This document shows positions 1-34,230 of a stretch of 64,000 bases of DNA, one piece after another (the stretch's first letter is position 1; the number at the start of each line of letters is the position of its first letter). Below the pieces are notes generated by a model. That model searched no databases and had not been told where the DNA came from. It worked only from the letters and a program-made list of their open reading frames with translations. The translations under genes and the position numbers were made by a program. Origin of the DNA: Escherichia coli (lineage in GTDB: Bacteria; Pseudomonadota; Gammaproteobacteria; Enterobacterales; Enterobacteriaceae); the NCBI RefSeq assembly GCF_003019035.1, contig NZ_CP027447.1; one strand, 5' to 3'.

Positions 1-172
1 GTTTTCGTACTGCCATAAAAAATGCCCTCCAGTAGAGAGCATTTTCACTGTATGTATAACCAGTGTCAATGTATGAAATCCTACGACCATACATCTCACT
101 GAAGCCATAATTAAGTTGGCTATTCTTTTTGCTATGTGAGCATGTAACTTTTGCGGTTAACCTGCGGCTCAT
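1..172 (-). CDS. partial ORF (N-terminal part only, runs off left edge); product unknown
   Basis: Minus-strand ATG at 172-170 opens a frame with no stop through position 1 (57 codons). Absent from the ORF track because it has no stop in the window. No family recognised; weak RBS. Confidence 0.2.
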   Translation of the reverse strand, partial: MSRRLTAKVTCSHSKKNSQLNYGFSEMYGRRISYIDTGYTYSENALYWRAFFMAVRK

Positions 173-204: not shown

Positions 205-396
205 TTATCGTGAGTTTTTAGTACAGATTTTTTTGGATTTACTAATAGTTCCATCATTGCAAACGAATTTGCCATCTGAGGTACAGTGAGAAACACCTCC
301 CTTTTTCCCTGAACAGGGATAATTTCTAGCATAGGTAGTTAGTGGGTTTAATAACAAAGAACATGAAAAAACCACAAAAAATACCTTACCAAGCAT
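205..396 (-). CDS. small Cys-rich protein with signal-peptide-like N-terminus (63 aa), downstream of cI
   Basis: Strong RBS (GGGAGGA) 6 nt before ATG; hydrophobic N-terminus [16 protein letters not shown]; 5 Cys; starts 15 bp after cI stop on the same strand. Confidence 0.45.
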
Positions 397-411
397 AGTT
401 TCCTCCCGGTA

Positions 412-987
412 CTATTTAACATACTTGACTGTTAAACTTATAATTTTACCAATTATTTCAATGTCTTCTATCTTGCATTCGAACGCTCTGTTTCCACCCT
501 CGACGAAGATTCTTCCACCGGGTAAACGAGTAATGTCACGGATCGTTATTTCACCATCAATACTTATTACCCATTTACCATCACGTATATCATCAAATTC
601 CTTATCACAAATAAATTCAGAATTATTATCTGTGATTACAAAAAGACTCTTGAATGCCGACGGTAGAAATCCCCTATCGAAAATATAAAAACCGTCTTCA
701 CACAAGGCACCATCAGATAATACATATTTAGCAACTTCCATAGTATTTGTATTACCTGAAGTTTGCTTTGAACCATGTCCGGTTGTGAGCCAATTAAGCG
801 AGGTGCCCGTTTCAAGGGCGCATTGGATTACCCATTCTGCTGGGAATGAGTCACGCATGTAGCGTGTGGCGAGTGTACTTTTAGAGATTCCTAAATGATC
901 GCACAACGCCTGTCGAGTTTTGAATCCATAAGCTTCTACCATGCGCTCTATAGCGCCTCGTCCGCCTTTCTCCAAATTCATGGTCAC
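412..987 (-). CDS. cI: CI-type immunity repressor (186-like size, 191 aa)
   Basis: Helix-turn-helix-like segment (TRQALCDHLGISKSTLATRYMRD); divergent from the early operon; position and length as in coliphage 186 cI. Confidence 0.75.
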   Translation of the reverse strand: MTMNLEKGGRGAIERMVEAYGFKTRQALCDHLGISKSTLATRYMRDSFPAEWVIQCALETGTSLNWLTTGHGSKQTSGNTNTMEVAKYVLSDGALCEDGFYIFDRGFLPSAFKSLFVITDNNSEFICDKEFDDIRDGKWVISIDGEITIRDITRLPGGRIFVEGGNRAFECKIEDIEIIGKIISLTVKYVK

Positions 988-2932: not shown

Positions 2933-2993
2933 CCAACTAATGAAATTAATGGCGTAAACCCGCCGGGCATCCCTTTATCTAAATTCAGGAGAA

Positions 2994-3233
2994 TTGATTA
3001 TGCGTAATATTGAAACCCTCTCGACCAAAACCGGACCGGATGACGCAGGGCTTAATATTTTACTGACAGAAGCTCGTCTGGAAGAACGCCGGGCAAGGGC
3101 TGAAGCAATGGCAGCTCGCCTTGATAGCCTGGCGTGTCATATCACATCCCGCCAGCTAACCCACGTCGAAGCGGCAGAACTGCTTCGTGTGACTGCTGAA
3201 GCAATCCAGAACGAAGCGCAGGAGATCCACTAA
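2994..3233 (+). CDS. hypothetical phage early protein (79 aa)
   Basis: ORF in the early operon; end overlaps the next gene start (ATGGCTGA). Confidence 0.5.
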   Translation: MIMRNIETLSTKTGPDDAGLNILLTEARLEERRARAEAMAARLDSLACHITSRQLTHVEAAELLRVTAEAIQNEAQEIH

Positions 3234-3460
3234 TGGCTGATGCAATGGATCTCGTACAGCAGCGCGTTGAAGAAGAACGCCAACGCCATATCCGTGCTGC
3301 CCGTGCCAAAACGCCGGGCGTGTCCCGCGTGCTTTGCATTGAGTGTGAAGCGCCAATTCCGCCAGCACGCCGCCGTGCCATTCCGGGTGTGCAGCTTTGC
3401 ATTACCTGTCAGGAAATCGCAGAGCTGAAAGGCAAACATTACAACGGAGGTGCTGTATGA
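3233..3460 (+). CDS. TraR/DksA-type C4 zinc-finger protein
   Basis: CxxC-N17-CxxC motif (CIECEAPIPPARRRAIPGVQLCITC); typical P2-family early gene. Confidence 0.7.
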   Translation: MADAMDLVQQRVEEERQRHIRAARAKTPGVSRVLCIECEAPIPPARRRAIPGVQLCITCQEIAELKGKHYNGGAV

Positions 3461-4314
3461 GCACCATCCTGAAATGGGCGGGAAATAAAACTGCCATAAT
3501 GTCCGAACTGAAAAAACATCTTCCTGCTGGCCCGCGACTGGTTGAACCTTTCGCGGGTTCCTGTGCTGTGATGATGGAGACGGATTATCCCAGCTATCTG
3601 GTTGCGGATATTAATCCTGATTTAATCAACCTCTATAAAAAGGTTGTCGCTGATTGTGAATCGTTTATATCTCGCGCCAGAGTTTTATTTGAGAACGCAA
3701 ACAGGGAGATGGATTATTACAACATAAGGCAGGAGTTTAATTACTCAACTGAAATTACTGATTTCATGAAAGCGGTATATTTCCTGTATCTCAATCGTCA
3801 CGGTTACCGTGGTTTATGTCGCTATAACAAGAGCGGGCATTTCAACATTCCCTACGGTAATTATAAAAATCCGTATTTCCCTGAAAAAGAAATTCGCGCA
3901 TTTGCAGAGAAAGCCCAGCGGGCAACGTTTATCTGCGCCAGCTTTGATGAAACGCTGGCGATGCTGCAGGTGGGGGATGTGGTGTATTGCGATCCGCCTT
4001 ATGACGGCACGTTTTCCGGTTATCACACTGACGGCTTCACTGAAGATGACCAGTATCATCTGGCATCCGTTCTTGAGCATCGGTCATCAGAAGGACATCC
4101 GGTCATTGTTTCTAACAGTGACACATCCCTGATCCGTTCGCTGTATCGCAATTTTACTCACCACTACATCAAGGCAAAACGCAGCATCGGCGTAGCAGCT
4201 GGTGAGAGTAAATCTGCAACAGAAATCATCGCTGTTTCTGGGGCACGCTGCTGGGTGGGATTTGATCCTTCGCGTGGCGTGGATAGTTCTGCTGTGTACG
4301 AGGTGCGTGTATGA
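3457..4314 (+). CDS. dam: DNA adenine methyltransferase (Dam family)
   Basis: DPPY catalytic motif (VYCDPPYDG) and AdoMet-binding-like EPFAGSCAV; GGAGG RBS; ATGA overlap with upstream gene. The ORF-track start 3397 was rejected as an N-terminal over-extension. Confidence 0.85.
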
Positions 4315-8236: not shown

Positions 8237-8303
8237 CGCGCGCTTATTACTTTGATAGTACTCGGGTTATAATATGGATGACTATCTATCTCGGAGAATG
8301 TGC

Positions 8304-9956
8304 ATGTCATTGGACTATATTAAAGAACAGTTGTCAGACTTTATTTCATCTGCAGAACCTGAGGTAATGGCTATTCAGGGTGAATGGGGGATTGGGAAAA
8401 CCTATACTTGGAATACTTTCTTAAAGGAAAATAAAAATAAGATTGCATTTAATAGATATAGTTACGTCTCTCTTTTTGGTGTTAATTCATTGGACGCATT
8501 AAAATATTCCATCTTTGAAAATACAATTACAAAAGATTTTATTGGAAATAAACCTAATTTAAAAACAGCAACACAAAATACAAAGGGACTTCTTGAATCC
8601 TGCACTAGAAAGACCGCTCGTTTGTTAAAAGAAACACCTGTTGTGAAAAATTTCGCTACGACACTTGAGTCAATGTCATTTATGTCAATTACTAATGTTA
8701 TTGTAGTCATAGATGACTTAGAAAGACGTGGTAAAAATTTAGAAGTGAAAGATGTCTTAGGGTTGGTTTCTTTATTGAAAGAACAAAAAAATTGTAAGGT
8801 GGTTCTTTTACTTAATAATGGGACAAGTGGTATGGATGATTACTCCACTTATAAAGAAAAGGTTATTGATAGAGAGATTACCTATAACCCTACGCCAGAA
8901 GAATGTGCAGCTATAGCATATAAAAATAATTCTGATGTTCATAAATTATTAAGCAAATACTCCATTTCTCTGGGTATTAAAAATATTCGGATACTGAAAA
9001 AAATAGAGCGGTTTTTGCTAGCCTTGTTACCTGCTATTAACGTTAATTTTGATAAAATTGCAAATGAAGTCGCACGCTCCTTAACTTTGTATTGTTGGAG
9101 TCATTACGCATTTACTCCAGATGGAGATGTACCATCATTGGAATATATTAGAAATATGAGAAATATCTATATGCGTGATGAAAAAGAGGATGGAAAAGGA
9201 AAAAAATGGCTTAATACTTTGCTTATATATGGTTATAAAAAAACAAACGAACTTGATGAAGTCCTTATAGACATGGTTAAGCATGGATATATTGATATGA
9301 ACAATTTTCAAAGGCAAGTAAGTCTAAGAAATGATGAACTTATCCGTGATAGTAAGCGAGGTTCACTGTTTGAAGCATGGAAGCTTTTCTATAATTCATT
9401 TGAAGATAACCGAAATCAGGTTGTTGATAATCTATATCAAGCGGTGGTTGGTGGGATAGAGTATGTAACTCCAAGTGACTTGGATAGTGTTGTCGGACTG
9501 TATAGAGATTTAGATGAAAATATTAAAGCAAGTGAATTAATAAGTAAATTTATTAATTACGGCAATGATGCTCTTAAGGAATATGTCCAATCTATTTACA
9601 TGAATGTTCATCCTATAAAAGATGCTGAGTTAAAGTCAAAAATCCAAGATTATTCTATTACTTTAAATCTGGATGGTTCTATAAAGGATGTTCTAATAAA
9701 ATTATCAAGTCAGAATGGTTGGTCTGATAGGCACGAGGAAATATTGGATGCTGCCTCAGAGGATGACTACTATGATTTATTTAAAAAAGTCATTCTTGAA
9801 GGTGGTGATTCAATAATAGCCACTGCTCTTAAGTTTGGTGGGTATAGCAATGGTTCAGATAGAATGAAACGCATCGGAGAAAAAGCGAGAAATGCTTTGA
9901 TAAGAATTGGAAATGAGTCGAAGATTAATAAAATACGTGTTAGACGGTATTTGTAA
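8304..9956 (+). CDS. KAP-family P-loop NTPase (standalone, ~550 aa)
   Basis: Walker A GEWGIGKT (KAP signature GxWGxGK[ST]) and Walker B VIVVIDDLERR; no obvious transmembrane insert; AT-rich; perfect TATAAT at 8268-8273 upstream. ATG 8304 chosen for RBS spacing; the track ORF begins at 8274. Confidence 0.8.
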   Translation: MSLDYIKEQLSDFISSAEPEVMAIQGEWGIGKTYTWNTFLKENKNKIAFNRYSYVSLFGVNSLDALKYSIFENTITKDFIGNKPNLKTATQNTKGLLESCTRKTARLLKETPVVKNFATTLESMSFMSITNVIVVIDDLERRGKNLEVKDVLGLVSLLKEQKNCKVVLLLNNGTSGMDDYSTYKEKVIDREITYNPTPEECAAIAYKNNSDVHKLLSKYSISLGIKNIRILKKIERFLLALLPAINVNFDKIANEVARSLTLYCWSHYAFTPDGDVPSLEYIRNMRNIYMRDEKEDGKGKKWLNTLLIYGYKKTNELDEVLIDMVKHGYIDMNNFQRQVSLRNDELIRDSKRGSLFEAWKLFYNSFEDNRNQVVDNLYQAVVGGIEYVTPSDLDSVVGLYRDLDENIKASELISKFINYGNDALKEYVQSIYMNVHPIKDAELKSKIQDYSITLNLDGSIKDVLIKLSSQNGWSDRHEEILDAASEDDYYDLFKKVILEGGDSIIATALKFGGYSNGSDRMKRIGEKARNALIRIGNESKINKIRVRRYL

Positions 9957-18375: not shown

Positions 18376-18397
18376 AAGCCAGCCTTTATTTTTTTAT
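18365..18397 (+). terminator. rho-independent terminator after S
   Basis: GGCTGGC-ATAAAA-GCCAGCC hairpin followed by TTTATTTTTTT. Confidence 0.55.
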
Positions 18398-19251
18398 GTG
18401 ATGGCCCCTATCTTTTGATTGTAATAACTATAATCAGCATGTTCTTCTGTATAAAAAATCTCAAATGCAGACAAGATGTTTGCGTAAAAACTATCCTTGG
18501 ATATAGAGGTTTTTTTATTGATGGATGCCAAAAAGTTTGTTATAAATCTTAATGATGCTGAGAAAAGAAAGTGCCCTTTCACCCAATGATTTATAGATGT
18601 ATTTTCTGGGAATTGAATGTTGTTTTTTTCTGCCAAACCATTAGTAGTAAACGATTCAGGTAGTCTATTGATATATTCATCTATTTTTTTCTTGCATATA
18701 TTGTATGAATTTCTTGATTGCATAAAACGATCACAGGAATCACCAATTACGGAGCATCCTAATTTATTTAAATGATTGTGAATATCTAGTATTATTAAGT
18801 TCTCAATGTTGCTATAGAAGTTAGAAAGCCAATTTCCTACATCTATTTCCTGCATTTTTTTTGTGCAAAAACGGCCTGTGTTTTTGAGTATGTGTGATAT
18901 GATTTTTTCATCAATGATTGTGTTTTCTATTGAATATCCCTTTGTGTAAATAATATTTGTATGCTTTACTATGTTGTCAGAAAAATGGTTTAGATCCGAA
19001 TCTCTGGCAACTATGGCGTTTATTTCTCCTGAGGTTATTTTTTCGATATATGGTTGTAAAGCTTCACATCCACCAACATCTTGAACTTCTACATTAAAAC
19101 GACCATTTTTTTTAAAAATTATTTCCCAAAAAGCAATGTCATCTTCACCTTCAACATAGACCATAATATCAGCATCATAAAATAAACTGATCACATTTTC
19201 CGCTTCATTAGACCAAGAAAAGTTTTCTGCATTAGAATCATTGATTAGCAT
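18394..19251 (-). CDS. Toprim/DUF4435-like protein (AriB-like), 285 aa
   Basis: Toprim-like acidic motifs VYVEGEDD (conserved Glu) and IVARDSD (DxD); overlaps the upstream ATPase gene by 14 bp; very AT-rich. Confidence 0.65.
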   Translation of the reverse strand: MLINDSNAENFSWSNEAENVISLFYDADIMVYVEGEDDIAFWEIIFKKNGRFNVEVQDVGGCEALQPYIEKITSGEINAIVARDSDLNHFSDNIVKHTNIIYTKGYSIENTIIDEKIISHILKNTGRFCTKKMQEIDVGNWLSNFYSNIENLIILDIHNHLNKLGCSVIGDSCDRFMQSRNSYNICKKKIDEYINRLPESFTTNGLAEKNNIQFPENTSINHWVKGHFLFSASLRFITNFLASINKKTSISKDSFYANILSAFEIFYTEEHADYSYYNQKIGAIT

Positions 19252-20494
19252 TGACTAATCTCTCCATATTGAAAATGGCGTTTTTATATTTAGATGCAAC
19301 TTCAGGAGAATGGGTTGCAGCAATAATTTGTGCATTAGGATTTAATTTTTTTATGGCAGGGATAATATTTCTTTGCCATTGAATATGTAAGGAAAGCTCA
19401 GGCTCATCAGTTAGGAAAATATATTGTTGCCCTCTTTGTAAGAGGGTCTCAATGAATAAAATTAGCAGTTGTTTTTCACCAGAAGATAAACTTTCTAAAA
19501 CTATTGGCCCATAGGTGTTATTTATGACTAACAATCCCGATTGAAAATGAAATTCTTTATCGGTGATAAAATTTCTTAGTATGCTTAAGAATTGTTCTAT
19601 TGGAGAAAATATTTTTGATGTTTTCTCTTTTGAAGTTAATGACATTTTGATTATTTTTTGTGTTTTTCTCAATGCTTCGATCGAACGAATATCAAAGCCT
19701 CTTTCACTTTTATTCTTTAATTCTGAAATGGTATTATTAATTGTTTCAACATGAAAGCTGATTTTTTTACGAATGTTTTGATCAATAGCATTTAACTGTG
19801 TGTATGCATTAAGGAGGTTTTGTTTTTCTTCCTCTTTGTTAAAGTTAATGTTGTAAGCAGGATTCTCCATATCTTCCTTGCTATAAAGTATTGATGCCAG
19901 AACCTCTTTTTGAAGTTCTAATGCGATATCTCTGGCTTTCTGGGATAGTTCAAGTTGATATTTTGTAAGTTCCTGTATTAATTCTGATAACTTATAGTCA
20001 ACAGGGTTGATAAAACGAGAGCCATATTTATCTTTAACTTCAAAATCATCACTATTTCTTAATCTGTAAACAGATAAAGAAGAAAGCGAGACTAGTTTTG
20101 CTAGTTCTGTTCTTAGTTCTTCTGTTTCATCATGCACTCTACGTCTATAACTAAGAGATATTCTTCTATCATCAGTGTTAAATAAACGAATTGTGTGTTT
20201 TTTAGATGAAAGCTGATATTCTATTTTGGAAAATGGAGATGTATCGCTTTCAAGTTTTTTGACTTTGATTGTTTTTGTCTTTTTTTTATCTTTAAGTTTT
20301 ATTTCGGCACTATTGAAATCAGCATTGTTAATACTGTCCAAATCAAGGGATAATATTGAGTGCAGAAGGTTCATAAAGGTTGTTTTACCCGTGCCATTTC
20401 GGCCTATAATAATGTTTACATCATCATTAAATGAGCAGGAACAGTTTAATCGCTGCCAAAAGCCATTAATTGTGACGCTTTGAATTTTATACAT
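19238..20494 (-). CDS. ABC/SMC-like ATPase (AAA_15/AAA_21-type, AriA-like), 418 aa
   Basis: Walker A GRNGTGKTT, ABC-signature-like LSSGEKQ, Walker B YIFLTDEPELSLH, H-loop IIAATHSPEV, with a charged coiled-coil-like insert between them. Confidence 0.75.
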   Translation of the reverse strand: MYKIQSVTINGFWQRLNCSCSFNDDVNIIIGRNGTGKTTFMNLLHSILSLDLDSINNADFNSAEIKLKDKKKTKTIKVKKLESDTSPFSKIEYQLSSKKHTIRLFNTDDRRISLSYRRRVHDETEELRTELAKLVSLSSLSVYRLRNSDDFEVKDKYGSRFINPVDYKLSELIQELTKYQLELSQKARDIALELQKEVLASILYSKEDMENPAYNINFNKEEEKQNLLNAYTQLNAIDQNIRKKISFHVETINNTISELKNKSERGFDIRSIEALRKTQKIIKMSLTSKEKTSKIFSPIEQFLSILRNFITDKEFHFQSGLLVINNTYGPIVLESLSSGEKQLLILFIETLLQRGQQYIFLTDEPELSLHIQWQRNIIPAIKKLNPNAQIIAATHSPEVASKYKNAIFNMERLVNANQ

Positions 20495-25016: not shown

Positions 25017-26054
25017 TTATATTTGCCTACCTCCTAATAAAATGTGTGAGGTGTATTTGTTGGTTTTCAATAACCTTGCTACAATTATACAGGTGGTTAC
25101 AATAAGGAAAACAAATGAAGGGGTTATGATGAGGTTATATATGAGTGGATTTTCGCATAGGTTATTAATGTTCACGTATGCCTCTATTCTGTGAAAAATA
25201 AACGACGAGATTATATAGATGGGAAAGGTGTAAGTACCGACAAAGGATGTGGCTCGTATAAATAAATTATTTTTCGTTGATAAAAATGTATAAGCATATA
25301 TAAGCGATATGCTTCCGGCGAAGCCAATGAAGTAGCGAAATATAATAATGAATGATTGATGCCAGAAATCAACATTCTCATATGTCATTTTAGATATGTA
25401 AATATAATACTCTCTATTCCATAGGAGAAGCATACCAATCCATGTTAATACGGCTAACACACCAATTTTGTGCCTATTTCTAGAGGCAAAATCTAAAATG
25501 CGATGGGCGGATATACCAGCGATAAAATAAGGGGCCATAAATTTAATTTTGTCCATATTCCAATCATCTCCATATGCAAGGGATATACTAAATATCAGTA
25601 AATAAAGCACCACAGAATATTGTTTGCTTATTGAGTGACAAATAGTATAAACAATAGATACTGCAAAGAGTGCAGAAAGGAACCAGAAGGCGTAGATGGC
25701 TCCATATCTAATATTTATTAAATTTATATCTCTTCCCACAAAAATGGATTCAGCAATGAACCATGCAATGGATGGGATTATTAACTGCATGAATTTTCTT
25801 TTGATAATTGATGATGGTTTTCTCTTGAGAGAAAAATAGAAAAGATAGCCGCTAAGCAGCATAAAAAATGGCATGTGGAAGCTGTAAATGGTAATAAATA
25901 ATGGGTTGTCAAAAAAATTGAAACTATCTTTTTTTACAAACTGAATTGAATGGCCCCACACGACAAAAATTATAGCTAATCCTTTCATTGAGTCTATAAT
26001 GGAATTTCGAGTGCTGGGTGTCTCTGTTATAATAAGATGTGGTTCGTTTTTCAT
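25017..26054 (-). CDS. acyltransferase family 3 integral membrane protein (O-antigen/LPS O-acetyltransferase-like)
   Basis: 345 aa, highly hydrophobic multi-TM; N-terminal region GLAIIFVVWGHSIQF typical of acyltransferase-3; very AT-rich; opposite strand to tail genes. Confidence 0.75.
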   Translation of the reverse strand: MKNEPHLIITETPSTRNSIIDSMKGLAIIFVVWGHSIQFVKKDSFNFFDNPLFITIYSFHMPFFMLLSGYLFYFSLKRKPSSIIKRKFMQLIIPSIAWFIAESIFVGRDINLINIRYGAIYAFWFLSALFAVSIVYTICHSISKQYSVVLYLLIFSISLAYGDDWNMDKIKFMAPYFIAGISAHRILDFASRNRHKIGVLAVLTWIGMLLLWNREYYIYISKMTYENVDFWHQSFIIIFRYFIGFAGSISLIYAYTFLSTKNNLFIRATSFVGTYTFPIYIISSFIFHRIEAYVNINNLCENPLIYNLIITPSFVFLIVTTCIIVARLLKTNKYTSHILLGGRQI

Positions 26055-33995: not shown

Positions 33996-34230
33996 CGCTG
34001 CCGCCATTATGTCGCCATCGTTAAAAAACAGTGCTTCTAATATCATGATTTTAAAAGGCATAAATTTTAGGCAACAAAAAACCCACCAACCTTGAACCGA
34101 AATGGCGGGGTTGATGGGCTCCACAAAATGGGGACATCAAAGAAAAGCAGTGGCACTAATTAAGACTGATGCCCTGCGGAAAAGTTCTGCGGTTGTGCAA
34201 AAAAATTTCATTTTCAGGGCAACTTCAGTT

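What the first reader, a model, noticed from the sequence alone, without database searches (positions are those of the whole stretch)
205..396. Small Cys-rich signal-peptide protein encoded directly downstream of cI
A 63-aa ORF with a strong RBS starts 15 bp after the cI stop on the same strand, so it is probably expressed in the lysogen. It has a hydrophobic N-terminal signal-like segment (possible lipobox-like VFSC) and five cysteines. Small envelope proteins in this position are often superinfection-exclusion or receptor-blocking factors (Cor-like). P2 itself has no gene between C and int.
Basis: inference. Interest (0 to 1): 0.45.

Follow-up and report, generated by a model that had tools for sequence, protein, structure and literature searches.

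The report
Prophage YdcA-family periplasmic mini-protein after cI
The small ORF is a real, already-annotated gene: a prophage copy of the YdcA family (a 40-residue, disulfide-bonded, strongly basic periplasmic peptide) that rides in the repressor operon of 186-like prophages, is very strongly conserved, and has no tested function.

Summary
A 63-codon ORF (window 205-396, minus strand) starts 15 nt after the cI stop, behind a GGGAGG ribosome-binding site, and has five cysteines.

It is not a novel or Cor-like lipoprotein. It is a YdcA-family protein (NCBIfam NF007463, 113 bits against a cutoff of 93; Pfam PF27300). RefSeq already annotates it as such, and it occurs in 627 of 5426 complete E. 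coli genomes, including BL21-derived strains.

- **Signal peptide:** Cys12 lies in an SPase-I-type signal peptide and is not conserved. The mature 40-residue peptide has four invariant cysteines and net charge +7.
- **Position:** diverged alleles fill the same cI→YdcA→int slot in Escherichia, Klebsiella, Enterobacter, Yersinia-type and Haemophilus HP2-type phages. In HP2 the gene is unannotated and overlaps the cI stop. Phages 186 and P2 have no gene there.
- **Selection:** synonymous sites are saturated while the mature peptide barely changes.
- **Relatives:** the only solved homologue is Dis2 of the Legionella Dot/Icm outer-membrane cap. Other family members are fused to secreted nucleases.

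Best reading: a periplasmic lysogenic-conversion factor co-expressed with cI. Exclusion of incoming DNA is plausible but untested.

The parts
205..396 (-). YdcA-family gene (63 codons plus TAA stop at 207-205)
   Evidence: ORF. NCBIfam NF007463 scores 113.2 bits against a cutoff of 93. phrog_6000. RefSeq annotates it as 'YdcA family protein' WP_000900883.1. PF27300:YdcA is recorded on the 97%-identical cluster representative and on alleles.
328..396 (-). Signal peptide, residues 1-23 (MLGK / [12 protein letters not shown] / NPLTTYA). The predicted SPase I cut is after Ala23.
   Evidence: Hydropathy. Ala at -1 is invariant in 24 homologues whose N-termini are otherwise unconserved. The AF2 model has a helix at residues 3-15. 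K-12 YdcA is described as having a signal sequence and being predicted periplasmic (PMC11340327).
208..327 (-). Mature peptide, residues 24-63: 40 aa, 4.3 kDa, four invariant Cys, net charge +7, pI 9.7
   Evidence: Purifying selection. AF2 pLDDT is 84-90 over the core.
397..411 (-). 15-nt cI-ydcA spacer with the GGGAGG ribosome-binding site (402-407)
   Evidence: Read directly from the sequence. No promoter-like or terminator-like site on the minus strand lies between the two genes.
412..987 (-). 186-type CI immunity repressor, the upstream gene of the operon
   Evidence: phrog_4 transcriptional repressor, E=6e-44. RefSeq 'phage repressor protein CI'. Homologous cI genes carry Phage_CI_repr plus Phage_CI_C.
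18..46 (-). 13-bp hairpin (-15.5 kcal/mol) that contains the int Shine-Dalgarno (GGAGGG) and runs into a U6 tract just before the int ATG. It could terminate transcription or mask the int ribosome-binding site in the cI-ydcA read-through transcript.
   Evidence: RNA folds (whole spacer z=-5.0). The consensus terminator scanner did not flag it.
41..69 (-). Promoter-like site TTGACA-17-GAAAAT. A transcript from it would start inside the 5' arm of the hairpin.
   Evidence: 10 of 12 matches. This is a consensus match only, and the number of sites found does not exceed the shuffles.
1..16 (-). First codons of the prophage integrase (ATG at 16-14). The gene runs off the left end of the window.
   Evidence: Annotation of the 99.6%-identical locus L001: int at 2961-4016, with window position 1 equal to L001 position 4001.

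Best explanation
The ORF encodes a phage-borne member of the YdcA family.

Shown or directly readable:
- It follows cI by 15 nt on the same strand, with a strong ribosome-binding site and no intervening promoter or terminator. It therefore belongs to the lysogenic (pL/pE-type) operon that in phage 186 carries cI and int.
- Its N-terminus is a Sec/SPase-I signal peptide.
- The mature product is a 40-residue peptide with four invariant cysteines and net charge +7.

Inferred:
- The four cysteines form two disulfides.
- The peptide is exported to the periplasm of the lysogen at repressor-like levels. There it acts as a small binding module close to the inner face of the outer membrane, as its only structurally characterised homologue does. 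That homologue is Dis2, which clamps the lipoproteins DotC/DotD/DotK in the Legionella type IVB secretion cap.
- The family is found on phages and small mobilizable plasmids, fused to secreted DNases, and in a DNA/protein translocation machine. The most likely benefit to the prophage is therefore interference with nucleic acid crossing the envelope: superinfecting phage DNA, or possibly transforming or conjugative DNA. That would be a periplasmic exclusion factor, not a receptor mask.

My estimates: about 0.9 for the identity, location and expression part, about 0.55 for an envelope-binding module, and about 0.3 for the exclusion function.
For: - **Identity:**
- **Operon position:**. The 186 record annotates pL/pE driving a cI-int-orf69 lysogenic operon.
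- **Same slot in diverged alleles:** Escherichia, Klebsiella and Enterobacter prophages, and 16 HP2-type plus 7 other viral contigs.
- **Tight coupling:** in HP2 the start overlaps the cI stop (TAATG), and in an Enterobacter variant the stop lies 2 nt before int.
- **Strong selection on the mature peptide only:** third-codon-position identity is 40-43%, yet there are only 1.5-2.5 non-synonymous differences in 32 codons, while the signal peptides are nearly unrelated.
- **Dis2 homology:** profile E=7e-6 against PDB 7MUC chain AN, the top two Foldseek hits, and Pfam YdcA hits on a Dis2-like protein. Dis2 location and contacts come from PMC8486379 and PMC12716638.
- **Fusions:** SNase, Endonuclease_NS (two proteins), PBCV_basic_adap and VasL. 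The SNase fusion is itself encoded on a P2-like phage contig, next to the tail gene D.
- **Basic charge is a family trait:** 123 of 132 cores are net positive.
- **Moron-like placement elsewhere:** in the tail modules of Moraxella and Acinetobacter phages and on 4-5 kb Mob plasmids.
Against: - No experiment or expression data were found for this gene.
- It has no hit in PADLOC or in any annotated exclusion PHROG.
- Dis2 is dispensable for T4SS structure and has no known DNA contact.
- Nuclease fusions are rare: 3 of 149 representatives.
- The chromosomal paralogue ydcA is a core gene linked, weakly, to acid and 3-hydroxypropionate tolerance rather than to phage resistance.
- The disulfide pattern and the export were not verified.
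Confidence: 0.45

Rival explanations
1. Lysogenic-conversion fitness factor. The phage copy adds to or replaces the function of chromosomal YdcA and raises envelope tolerance to acid, organic acid or other stress in the lysogen. It would have no role against other phages.
For: The mature peptide is about 70% identical to K-12 YdcA. Deleting ydcA sensitises E. coli W to 3-hydroxypropionate, and that paper states that ydcA, under YdcI control, is up-regulated at pH 5 (PMC7642389). The gene is kept in the defective E. coli B prophage, where cII and the replication gene are truncated.
Against: The stress phenotype is a single report without a mechanism. E. coli already has a chromosomal copy, so the gain from a second is unclear. 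This reading does not explain the recurrent links to nucleases, T4SS, Mob plasmids and phages.
Confidence: 0.22
2. Periplasmic DNA-binding or nuclease-partner peptide. The basic mini-domain binds DNA directly and traps incoming DNA, or recruits a host periplasmic nuclease. This is a specific sub-mechanism of exclusion.
For: It sits at the N-terminus of the mature chain of two unrelated secreted nuclease families, with the SNase catalytic motifs intact. One such fusion lies on a P2-like phage. Net charge is +7 and the family mean is +3. It also co-occurs with the basic PBCV adaptor domain.
Against: Dis2 lobe 1, read from the alignment, has net charge of only about +1, and Dis2 binds lipoproteins, not DNA. 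Fusion could equally mean anchoring. No nucleic-acid-binding fold was detected.
Confidence: 0.15
3. One reading: a Cor/Llp-like outer-membrane lipoprotein that masks a receptor such as FhuA, OmpC or LamB.
For: It is a small exported protein made in the lysogen, and a Cys occurs in the leader.
Against: There is no lipobox. Cys12 is too early, Phe occupies -2, and the Cys is absent in many homologues, including K-12 YdcA and HP2. There is no similarity to any annotated exclusion family. A conserved AxA-type cleavage site follows instead.
Confidence: 0.05
4. Secreted antibacterial peptide. A cationic disulfide peptide is released, for example at lysis, and acts on competitors. The neighbouring membrane protein on small plasmids would serve as immunity.
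For: Cationic, cysteine-stabilised, 4.3 kDa. On 4-5 kb Mob plasmids it pairs with a conserved membrane-anchored protein.
Against: It has a Sec leader rather than a double-glycine leader with an exporter. There is no immunity partner in the prophage slot. It is a core chromosomal gene in E. coli without a partner. Dis2 is a structural subunit.
Confidence: 0.04

Closest known systems
YdcA of E. coli K-12 (P0ACW4; Pfam PF27300 YdcA; NCBIfam PRK10040 models NF007462/NF007463)
   Same: Same family and architecture: a signal peptide plus a domain of about 37 residues with the CSGxKGGxxHC...FxCxDGxxSxSKxxC motif. The mature part is about 70% identical. Predicted periplasmic, function unknown.
   Different: The window gene is the phage-borne subfamily (it matches NF007463 above its cutoff, but NF007462 at only 68 bits against a cutoff of 118). 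It sits in a prophage repressor operon rather than next to rydC/cybB. It has an NYP motif before the first Cys and a higher charge (+7 against +5).
[quoted passage not shown]
   Same: Homologous cysteine-rich mini-domain (profile E=7e-6; best Foldseek hits). Exported and located just under the outer membrane.
   Different: Dis2 has two tandem lobes pinned by five disulfides and is a stoichiometric part of a secretion machine. The phage protein is a single free domain, much more basic, and no T4BSS is nearby. The published papers describe Dis2 as Legionellales-specific with no structural homologue.
Unannotated ORF after cI in Haemophilus phages HP2 and S2 (Peduoviridae, Hpunavirus)
   Same: Same family (51% identity), same strand and same slot between cI and int. 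The start codon overlaps the cI stop.
   Different: It is followed by a second exported protein, orf1(S), before int. It is not annotated in the deposited records.
Repressor-operon passengers that protect lysogens: lambda rexA/rexB. Periplasmic or envelope exclusion proteins: T4 Sp, T5 Llp, phi80/N15 Cor (comparison from general knowledge, not tested here)
   Same: Logic only. These are genes expressed with or alongside the repressor in the lysogen, or small envelope-located products that act on incoming phage.
   Different: No sequence or fold relationship was detected. Llp and Cor are lipoproteins that mask FhuA, RexAB is cytoplasmic or inner-membrane, and Sp inhibits a tail lysozyme.

Membership tests
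YdcA family (PF27300 / NCBIfam NF007463) | Score above the curated whole-protein cutoff of the family model | tested here: met
   NF007463 scores 113.2 bits against a cutoff of 93, covering residues 5-63 over model positions 1-58 of 58. PF27300 is recorded for the 97%-identical representative P0001.
YdcA family (PF27300 / NCBIfam NF007463) | N-terminal signal peptide followed by the four-Cys core CSGxKGG..C..FxCxDG..S.SK..C | tested here: met
   In the 24-sequence alignment, A23, P27, C28, S29, K32, G33, G34, C38, F44, C46, D48, G49, S52, S54, K55 and C58 are invariant.
YdcA family (PF27300 / NCBIfam NF007463) | Actual export and signal-peptide cleavage, and disulfide formation | not testable with these tools
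   No SignalP and no experiment were available. Only rule-based inference and a literature statement for K-12 YdcA.
Bacterial lipoprotein (SPase II substrate), as implied by 'lipobox-like VFSC' | Lipobox [LVI][ASTVI][GAS]C at the end of the hydrophobic core, with the Cys conserved among homologues | tested here: not met
   VFSC has Phe at -2, and the Cys is residue 12 with the hydrophobic run continuing (SLLL) after it. The Cys is missing from K-12 YdcA, HP2, P0018, P0022, P0024 and others.
Cor / Llp-type superinfection-exclusion proteins | Sequence similarity to an annotated exclusion family | tested here: not met
   At E<=1 PHROGs gives only phrog_6000, 35183 and 36424, all of unknown function. 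Pfam-A has no significant hit. PADLOC has no hit at E<=10.
Cor / Llp-type superinfection-exclusion proteins | Blocks adsorption or DNA entry of a defined phage | not testable with these tools
   Requires plating and adsorption assays.
Dis2 (T4BSS outer-membrane-cap subunit) | Homologous Cys-rich domain | tested here: met
   A profile without Dis2 gives E=7.1e-6 to 7muc_AN. Foldseek ranks 1-2 are Dis2. The lower E-value is not independent, because a Dis2 fragment was included in that alignment.
Dis2 (T4BSS outer-membrane-cap subunit) | Two-lobe architecture and association with a Dot/Icm-type machine | tested here: not met
   This is a single domain of 40 residues. The neighbours are cI and int of a 186-like prophage.
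Lysogenic-operon gene of a 186-like prophage | Same strand as cI, downstream of it, with no intervening promoter or terminator, and upstream of int | tested here: met
   The 186 operon annotation is used as the reference.
Lysogenic-operon gene of a 186-like prophage | Transcript and protein present in lysogens | not tested
   No expression data were found.

The most novel reading that the evidence does not exclude
YdcA-family mini-proteins are a previously unrecognised, very widespread class of periplasmic exclusion factors. They are carried by temperate phages (in the repressor operon in Peduoviridae, in tail-module morons in Moraxellaceae phages) and by small plasmids. They dock under the outer membrane, as Dis2 does in the Dot/Icm cap, and block or trap DNA crossing the envelope. 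In some phages the same domain has been welded to a DNase. This would also give the orphan E. coli gene ydcA and the 'species-specific' Legionella protein Dis2 a common mechanistic frame.
Probability: 0.2. Interest if true: 0.65.

Novelty: already known. Interest (0 to 1): 0.3.

Why it matters
The gene and its family are catalogued, but no function is known for any member. This copy is carried by about one in nine sequenced E. coli, including BL21-derived lab strains. It sits in the one operon that is on in every lysogen, and its mature peptide is almost frozen while synonymous sites are saturated. Something specific and conserved is therefore being bound. That makes it a cheap, well-defined candidate for a knockout and expression test of prophage-conferred envelope phenotypes. 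The link to Dis2 supplies the first structural template for the family. The payoff is moderate: a function for an orphan y-gene family and possibly a new type of exclusion factor.

Tried and rejected
- **Pfam-A scan of the protein:** no significant family. The installed library predates PF27300, which appears only in precomputed annotations.
- **PADLOC:** nothing.
- **NCBIfam lpg1681 family:** E=0.09, treated as noise.
- **Foldseek against AFDB50:** returned only family members with uninformative names such as 'periplasmic protein', 'TolA' and 'TraN fragment'. This probably explains the stray UniRef name 'conjugal transfer protein'.
- **Weak profile hits to LDL-receptor class A modules** (E 0.006-0.06): judged to be cysteine-pattern and composition similarity.
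- ** E-value to Dis2:** discounted because I had put a Dis2 fragment into alignment A3.
- **Megablast of the region against phage genomes:** found only a 74-nt int match in Klebsiella phages.
- **First IMG/VR scan:** returned only near-identical copies.
- **Literature searches** for the family name, model accessions and protein accessions: no functional study. The HP2 search was unproductive, and one search failed on a short term.
- **NCBIfam scan of the plasmid and HP2 neighbour proteins:** nothing.
- **The E. coli 'plasmid' hits (H66/H67):** they carry rcdA and ybjJ, so they look like chromosomal prophage fragments rather than true plasmids.

Full report
**1. Observation**

The window's left end holds the immunity region of a 186-like (Peduoviridae) prophage. 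On the minus strand lies a CI repressor gene (412-987), scoring phrog_4 E=6e-44 and annotated 'phage repressor protein CI' in a 99.6%-identical RefSeq locus. Fifteen nucleotides after its TAG stop, a 63-codon ORF (396 down to 205) begins behind the sequence TACCGGGAGGAAACT. The product is [63 protein letters not shown], with five cysteines. The integrase start codon is at window 16-14, and the gene runs off the window. Every factual element of the finding is therefore correct. So is the remark that P2 has no gene between C and int, and phage 186 has none either, because there cI and int overlap by one base.

**2. What it is**

The protein matches the NCBIfam equivalog model NF007463 (PRK10040.1-2) at 113 bits, above its cutoff of 93. 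It also matches PHROG 6000, which has no assigned function. RefSeq annotates exactly this protein (WP_000900883.1) as 'YdcA family protein'. The exact sequence is in public collections on 169 contigs. Precomputed Pfam annotation assigns relatives to PF27300 'YdcA'. The K-12 chromosomal protein YdcA, whose sequence I confirmed as YDCA_ECOLI, aligns with about 70% identity over the mature part.

The family is large, with 478 clusters at 50% identity. The gene is therefore real and already catalogued. What is not known is its function: the papers found call ydcA a small periplasmic protein of unknown function (PMC11340327; PMC7642389).

**3. Signal peptide, not lipoprotein**

In an alignment of 24 family members the N-terminal 20-25 residues are hydrophobic but unconserved. 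The exception is an invariant Ala immediately before the conserved domain, with small residues at -3, which is the SPase I pattern. Cys12 of the window protein sits inside the hydrophobic core, preceded by Phe at -2, and is absent from many homologues. The 'VFSC lipobox' idea therefore fails.

The predicted mature peptide (residues 24-63) is 40 residues and 4.3 kDa, with four invariant cysteines, net charge +7 and pI 9.7. A positive charge is a family trait: 123 of 132 cores are net positive. AlphaFold models give a small two-strand core with pLDDT 84-90.

**4. Distribution and synteny**

The gene is present in 627 of 5426 complete E. coli genomes. In at least 591 of them the whole int-ydcA-cI arrangement is conserved. 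It is present in BL21-derived C41(DE3) and Nico21(DE3), inside the defective prophage next to rcdA. That prophage also carries a retron, and the module survives even though cII and the replication gene are truncated.

Alleles with only about 65% overall identity occupy the same slot in prophages of Escherichia, Klebsiella and Enterobacter. Some have a KAP-family NTPase inserted between YdcA and int, and some have the YdcA stop 2 nt before int. A tblastn search of phage genomes found an unannotated homologue in Haemophilus phages HP2 and S2. It lies directly after cI, with its ATG overlapping the cI stop (TAATG), and upstream of orf1(S) and int. Among 80 diverse IMG/VR loci, 15 of 16 HP2-type contigs have cI abutting the gene (the sixteenth begins too close to the contig end to show cI). 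Seven further contigs, six of them Yersinia-type, have a cI-like gene 27-953 nt upstream on the same strand, and the six Yersinia-type ones also have int 100 nt downstream.

In Moraxella and Acinetobacter phages the gene instead sits as an insert in the tail-gene module. On 4-5 kb mobilizable plasmids of Acinetobacter and Psychrobacter it is paired with a conserved membrane-anchored protein. This is the behaviour of a moron, meaning a self-contained cargo gene.

**5. Selection**

I compared the window allele with three diverged prophage alleles. Third-codon-position identity in the mature region is 40-43%, which is essentially saturated. Only 1.5-2.5 non-synonymous differences occur across 32 codons (dN 0.02-0.03). 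The signal peptides are almost unrelated. The mature peptide is therefore under very strong purifying selection. G+C is 37%, typical of acquired cargo.

**6. Expression logic**

No promoter-like or terminator-like site lies between cI and the ORF on the minus strand. By analogy with the annotated 186 lysogenic operon (pL/pE driving cI-int-orf69), the gene should be made whenever repressor is made.

The 188-nt spacer before int folds unusually well (z=-5.0). Its last element is a 13-bp hairpin (window 46-18, -15.5 kcal/mol). It contains the int Shine-Dalgarno and runs into a U6 tract just before the int ATG. A promoter-like TTGACA-17-GAAAAT site (69-41) would start transcripts inside the hairpin's 5' arm. 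I infer that int is insulated from the maintenance transcript. That would make cI-ydcA the constitutive lysogenic unit in this variant. This is inference only.

**7. Clues to mechanism**

(a) A profile of the family that did not include Dis2 hits one set of PDB entries at E=7e-6. The hit is chain AN of the Legionella Dot/Icm T4SS structures (7MUC and related), which is Dis2/Lpg0823. Those chains are also the top two Foldseek hits, and a Dis2-like protein carries a Pfam YdcA hit. Dis2 has two similar lobes pinned by five disulfides. It sits next to the outer membrane and contacts the lipoproteins DotC, DotD and DotK. Its authors report no structural homologue and regard it as Legionellales-specific.

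(b) In longer family members the domain always follows the signal peptide. It is fused to a staphylococcal-nuclease domain, to DNA/RNA non-specific endonuclease domains (two proteins), to the basic PBCV adaptor domain, to a T6SS VasL domain, or to further copies of itself. The SNase fusion is encoded on a P2-like phage contig next to tail gene D.

(c) Deleting K-12-type ydcA sensitises E. coli W to 3-hydroxypropionate, and the gene is reported as acid-induced.

**8. Interpretation**

I am confident (about 0.9) of the following: this is a Sec-exported, SPase-I-processed, disulfide-bonded, basic periplasmic mini-protein of the YdcA family, carried as a moron in the lysogenic operon.

I hold the next step moderately (about 0.55): it works as a binding module under the outer membrane, as Dis2 does.

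I hold the last step weakly (about 0.3): the benefit is exclusion of incoming nucleic acid in the periplasm. This is suggested by the repeated association with DNA-moving elements and secreted DNases.

The rivals are:
- A stress-tolerance conversion factor mirroring chromosomal YdcA (about 0.2).
- Direct DNA binding or nuclease recruitment, a sub-mechanism of exclusion (about 0.15).
- An antibacterial peptide (about 0.04).

A chance ORF is excluded.

**9. Novelty and score**

The gene is already annotated and belongs to a named family, so as an object it is known. Three observations are modestly new:
- The conserved repressor-operon slot across Enterobacterales and Pasteurellaceae phages, including an unannotated HP2/S2 gene.
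- The strength of selection on the mature peptide.
- The link between YdcA and Dis2.

None is very surprising to a phage specialist, but the gene is an easy and well-motivated target. Interest 0.3.

Noticed in passing
[not shown]
   Followed up: yes
PDB 7MUC/7MUD chain AN (Dis2, Lpg0823): The Legionella Dot/Icm cap protein Dis2 is published as species-specific and without structural homologues. It appears to be a tandem duplication of the YdcA domain, which is widespread in Proteobacteria, phages and plasmids.
   Followed up: partly
window 18-69, minus strand: A strong hairpin contains the int ribosome-binding site and a U-run immediately before the int ATG. It overlaps the -10 of a promoter-like site. 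This may insulate int from the cI transcript. The whole 188-nt spacer folds with z=-5.0.
   Followed up: partly
L008/L012 5198-6529 (variant prophages of Escherichia and Klebsiella): A 443-residue KAP-family P-loop NTPase (weak QatA-like hit, below cutoff) is inserted between the YdcA gene and int. The cI-int interval therefore acts as a variable cargo slot. In the Klebsiella variant a SocA_Panacea-domain gene lies just beyond int.
   Followed up: partly
window 18394-20494, minus strand: Two adjacent genes inside the prophage late region match AriB (E=2e-21) and AriA (E=2e-38) of the PARIS anti-phage system.
   Followed up: partly
window 8274-9956, plus strand: A 560-residue ORF downstream of the replication gene matches the PADLOC candidate defence family PDC-S49 (E=4e-25).
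   Followed up: no
window 25017-26054, minus strand: A 345-residue ORF with a sub-threshold match to NolL-type (fucose) acetyltransferases. It may be an LPS/O-antigen-modifying lysogenic-conversion gene in the tail-fibre region.
   Followed up: no
window 34073-34151, minus strand: The RybB sRNA gene (104 bits) lies at about the right-hand end of the prophage. With rcdA flanking int in related genomes, this places the prophage at the rybB/rcdA locus.
   Followed up: partly
L021 (C41(DE3) chromosome 867694-879908): E. coli B derivatives keep int-ydcA-cI in a defective prophage whose cII and replication genes are truncated. The same prophage carries retron St85-family genes, so common lab strains already carry the gene.
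   Followed up: partly
L022 5001-5669 (IMG metagenome contig Ga0501169_000038): A YdcA-SNase fusion with intact nuclease motifs is encoded on a P2-like phage contig, on the opposite strand just beyond tail gene D. It is a candidate prophage-encoded secreted DNase.
   Followed up: partly
L018 728-1697 and L019 2932-4091 (4-5 kb Mob plasmids of Acinetobacter pittii and Psychrobacter): The YdcA-like gene is followed by a conserved protein with N-terminal transmembrane segments and a shared C-terminal domain. This is a two-gene cassette of unknown function next to the mobilization genes.
   Followed up: partly
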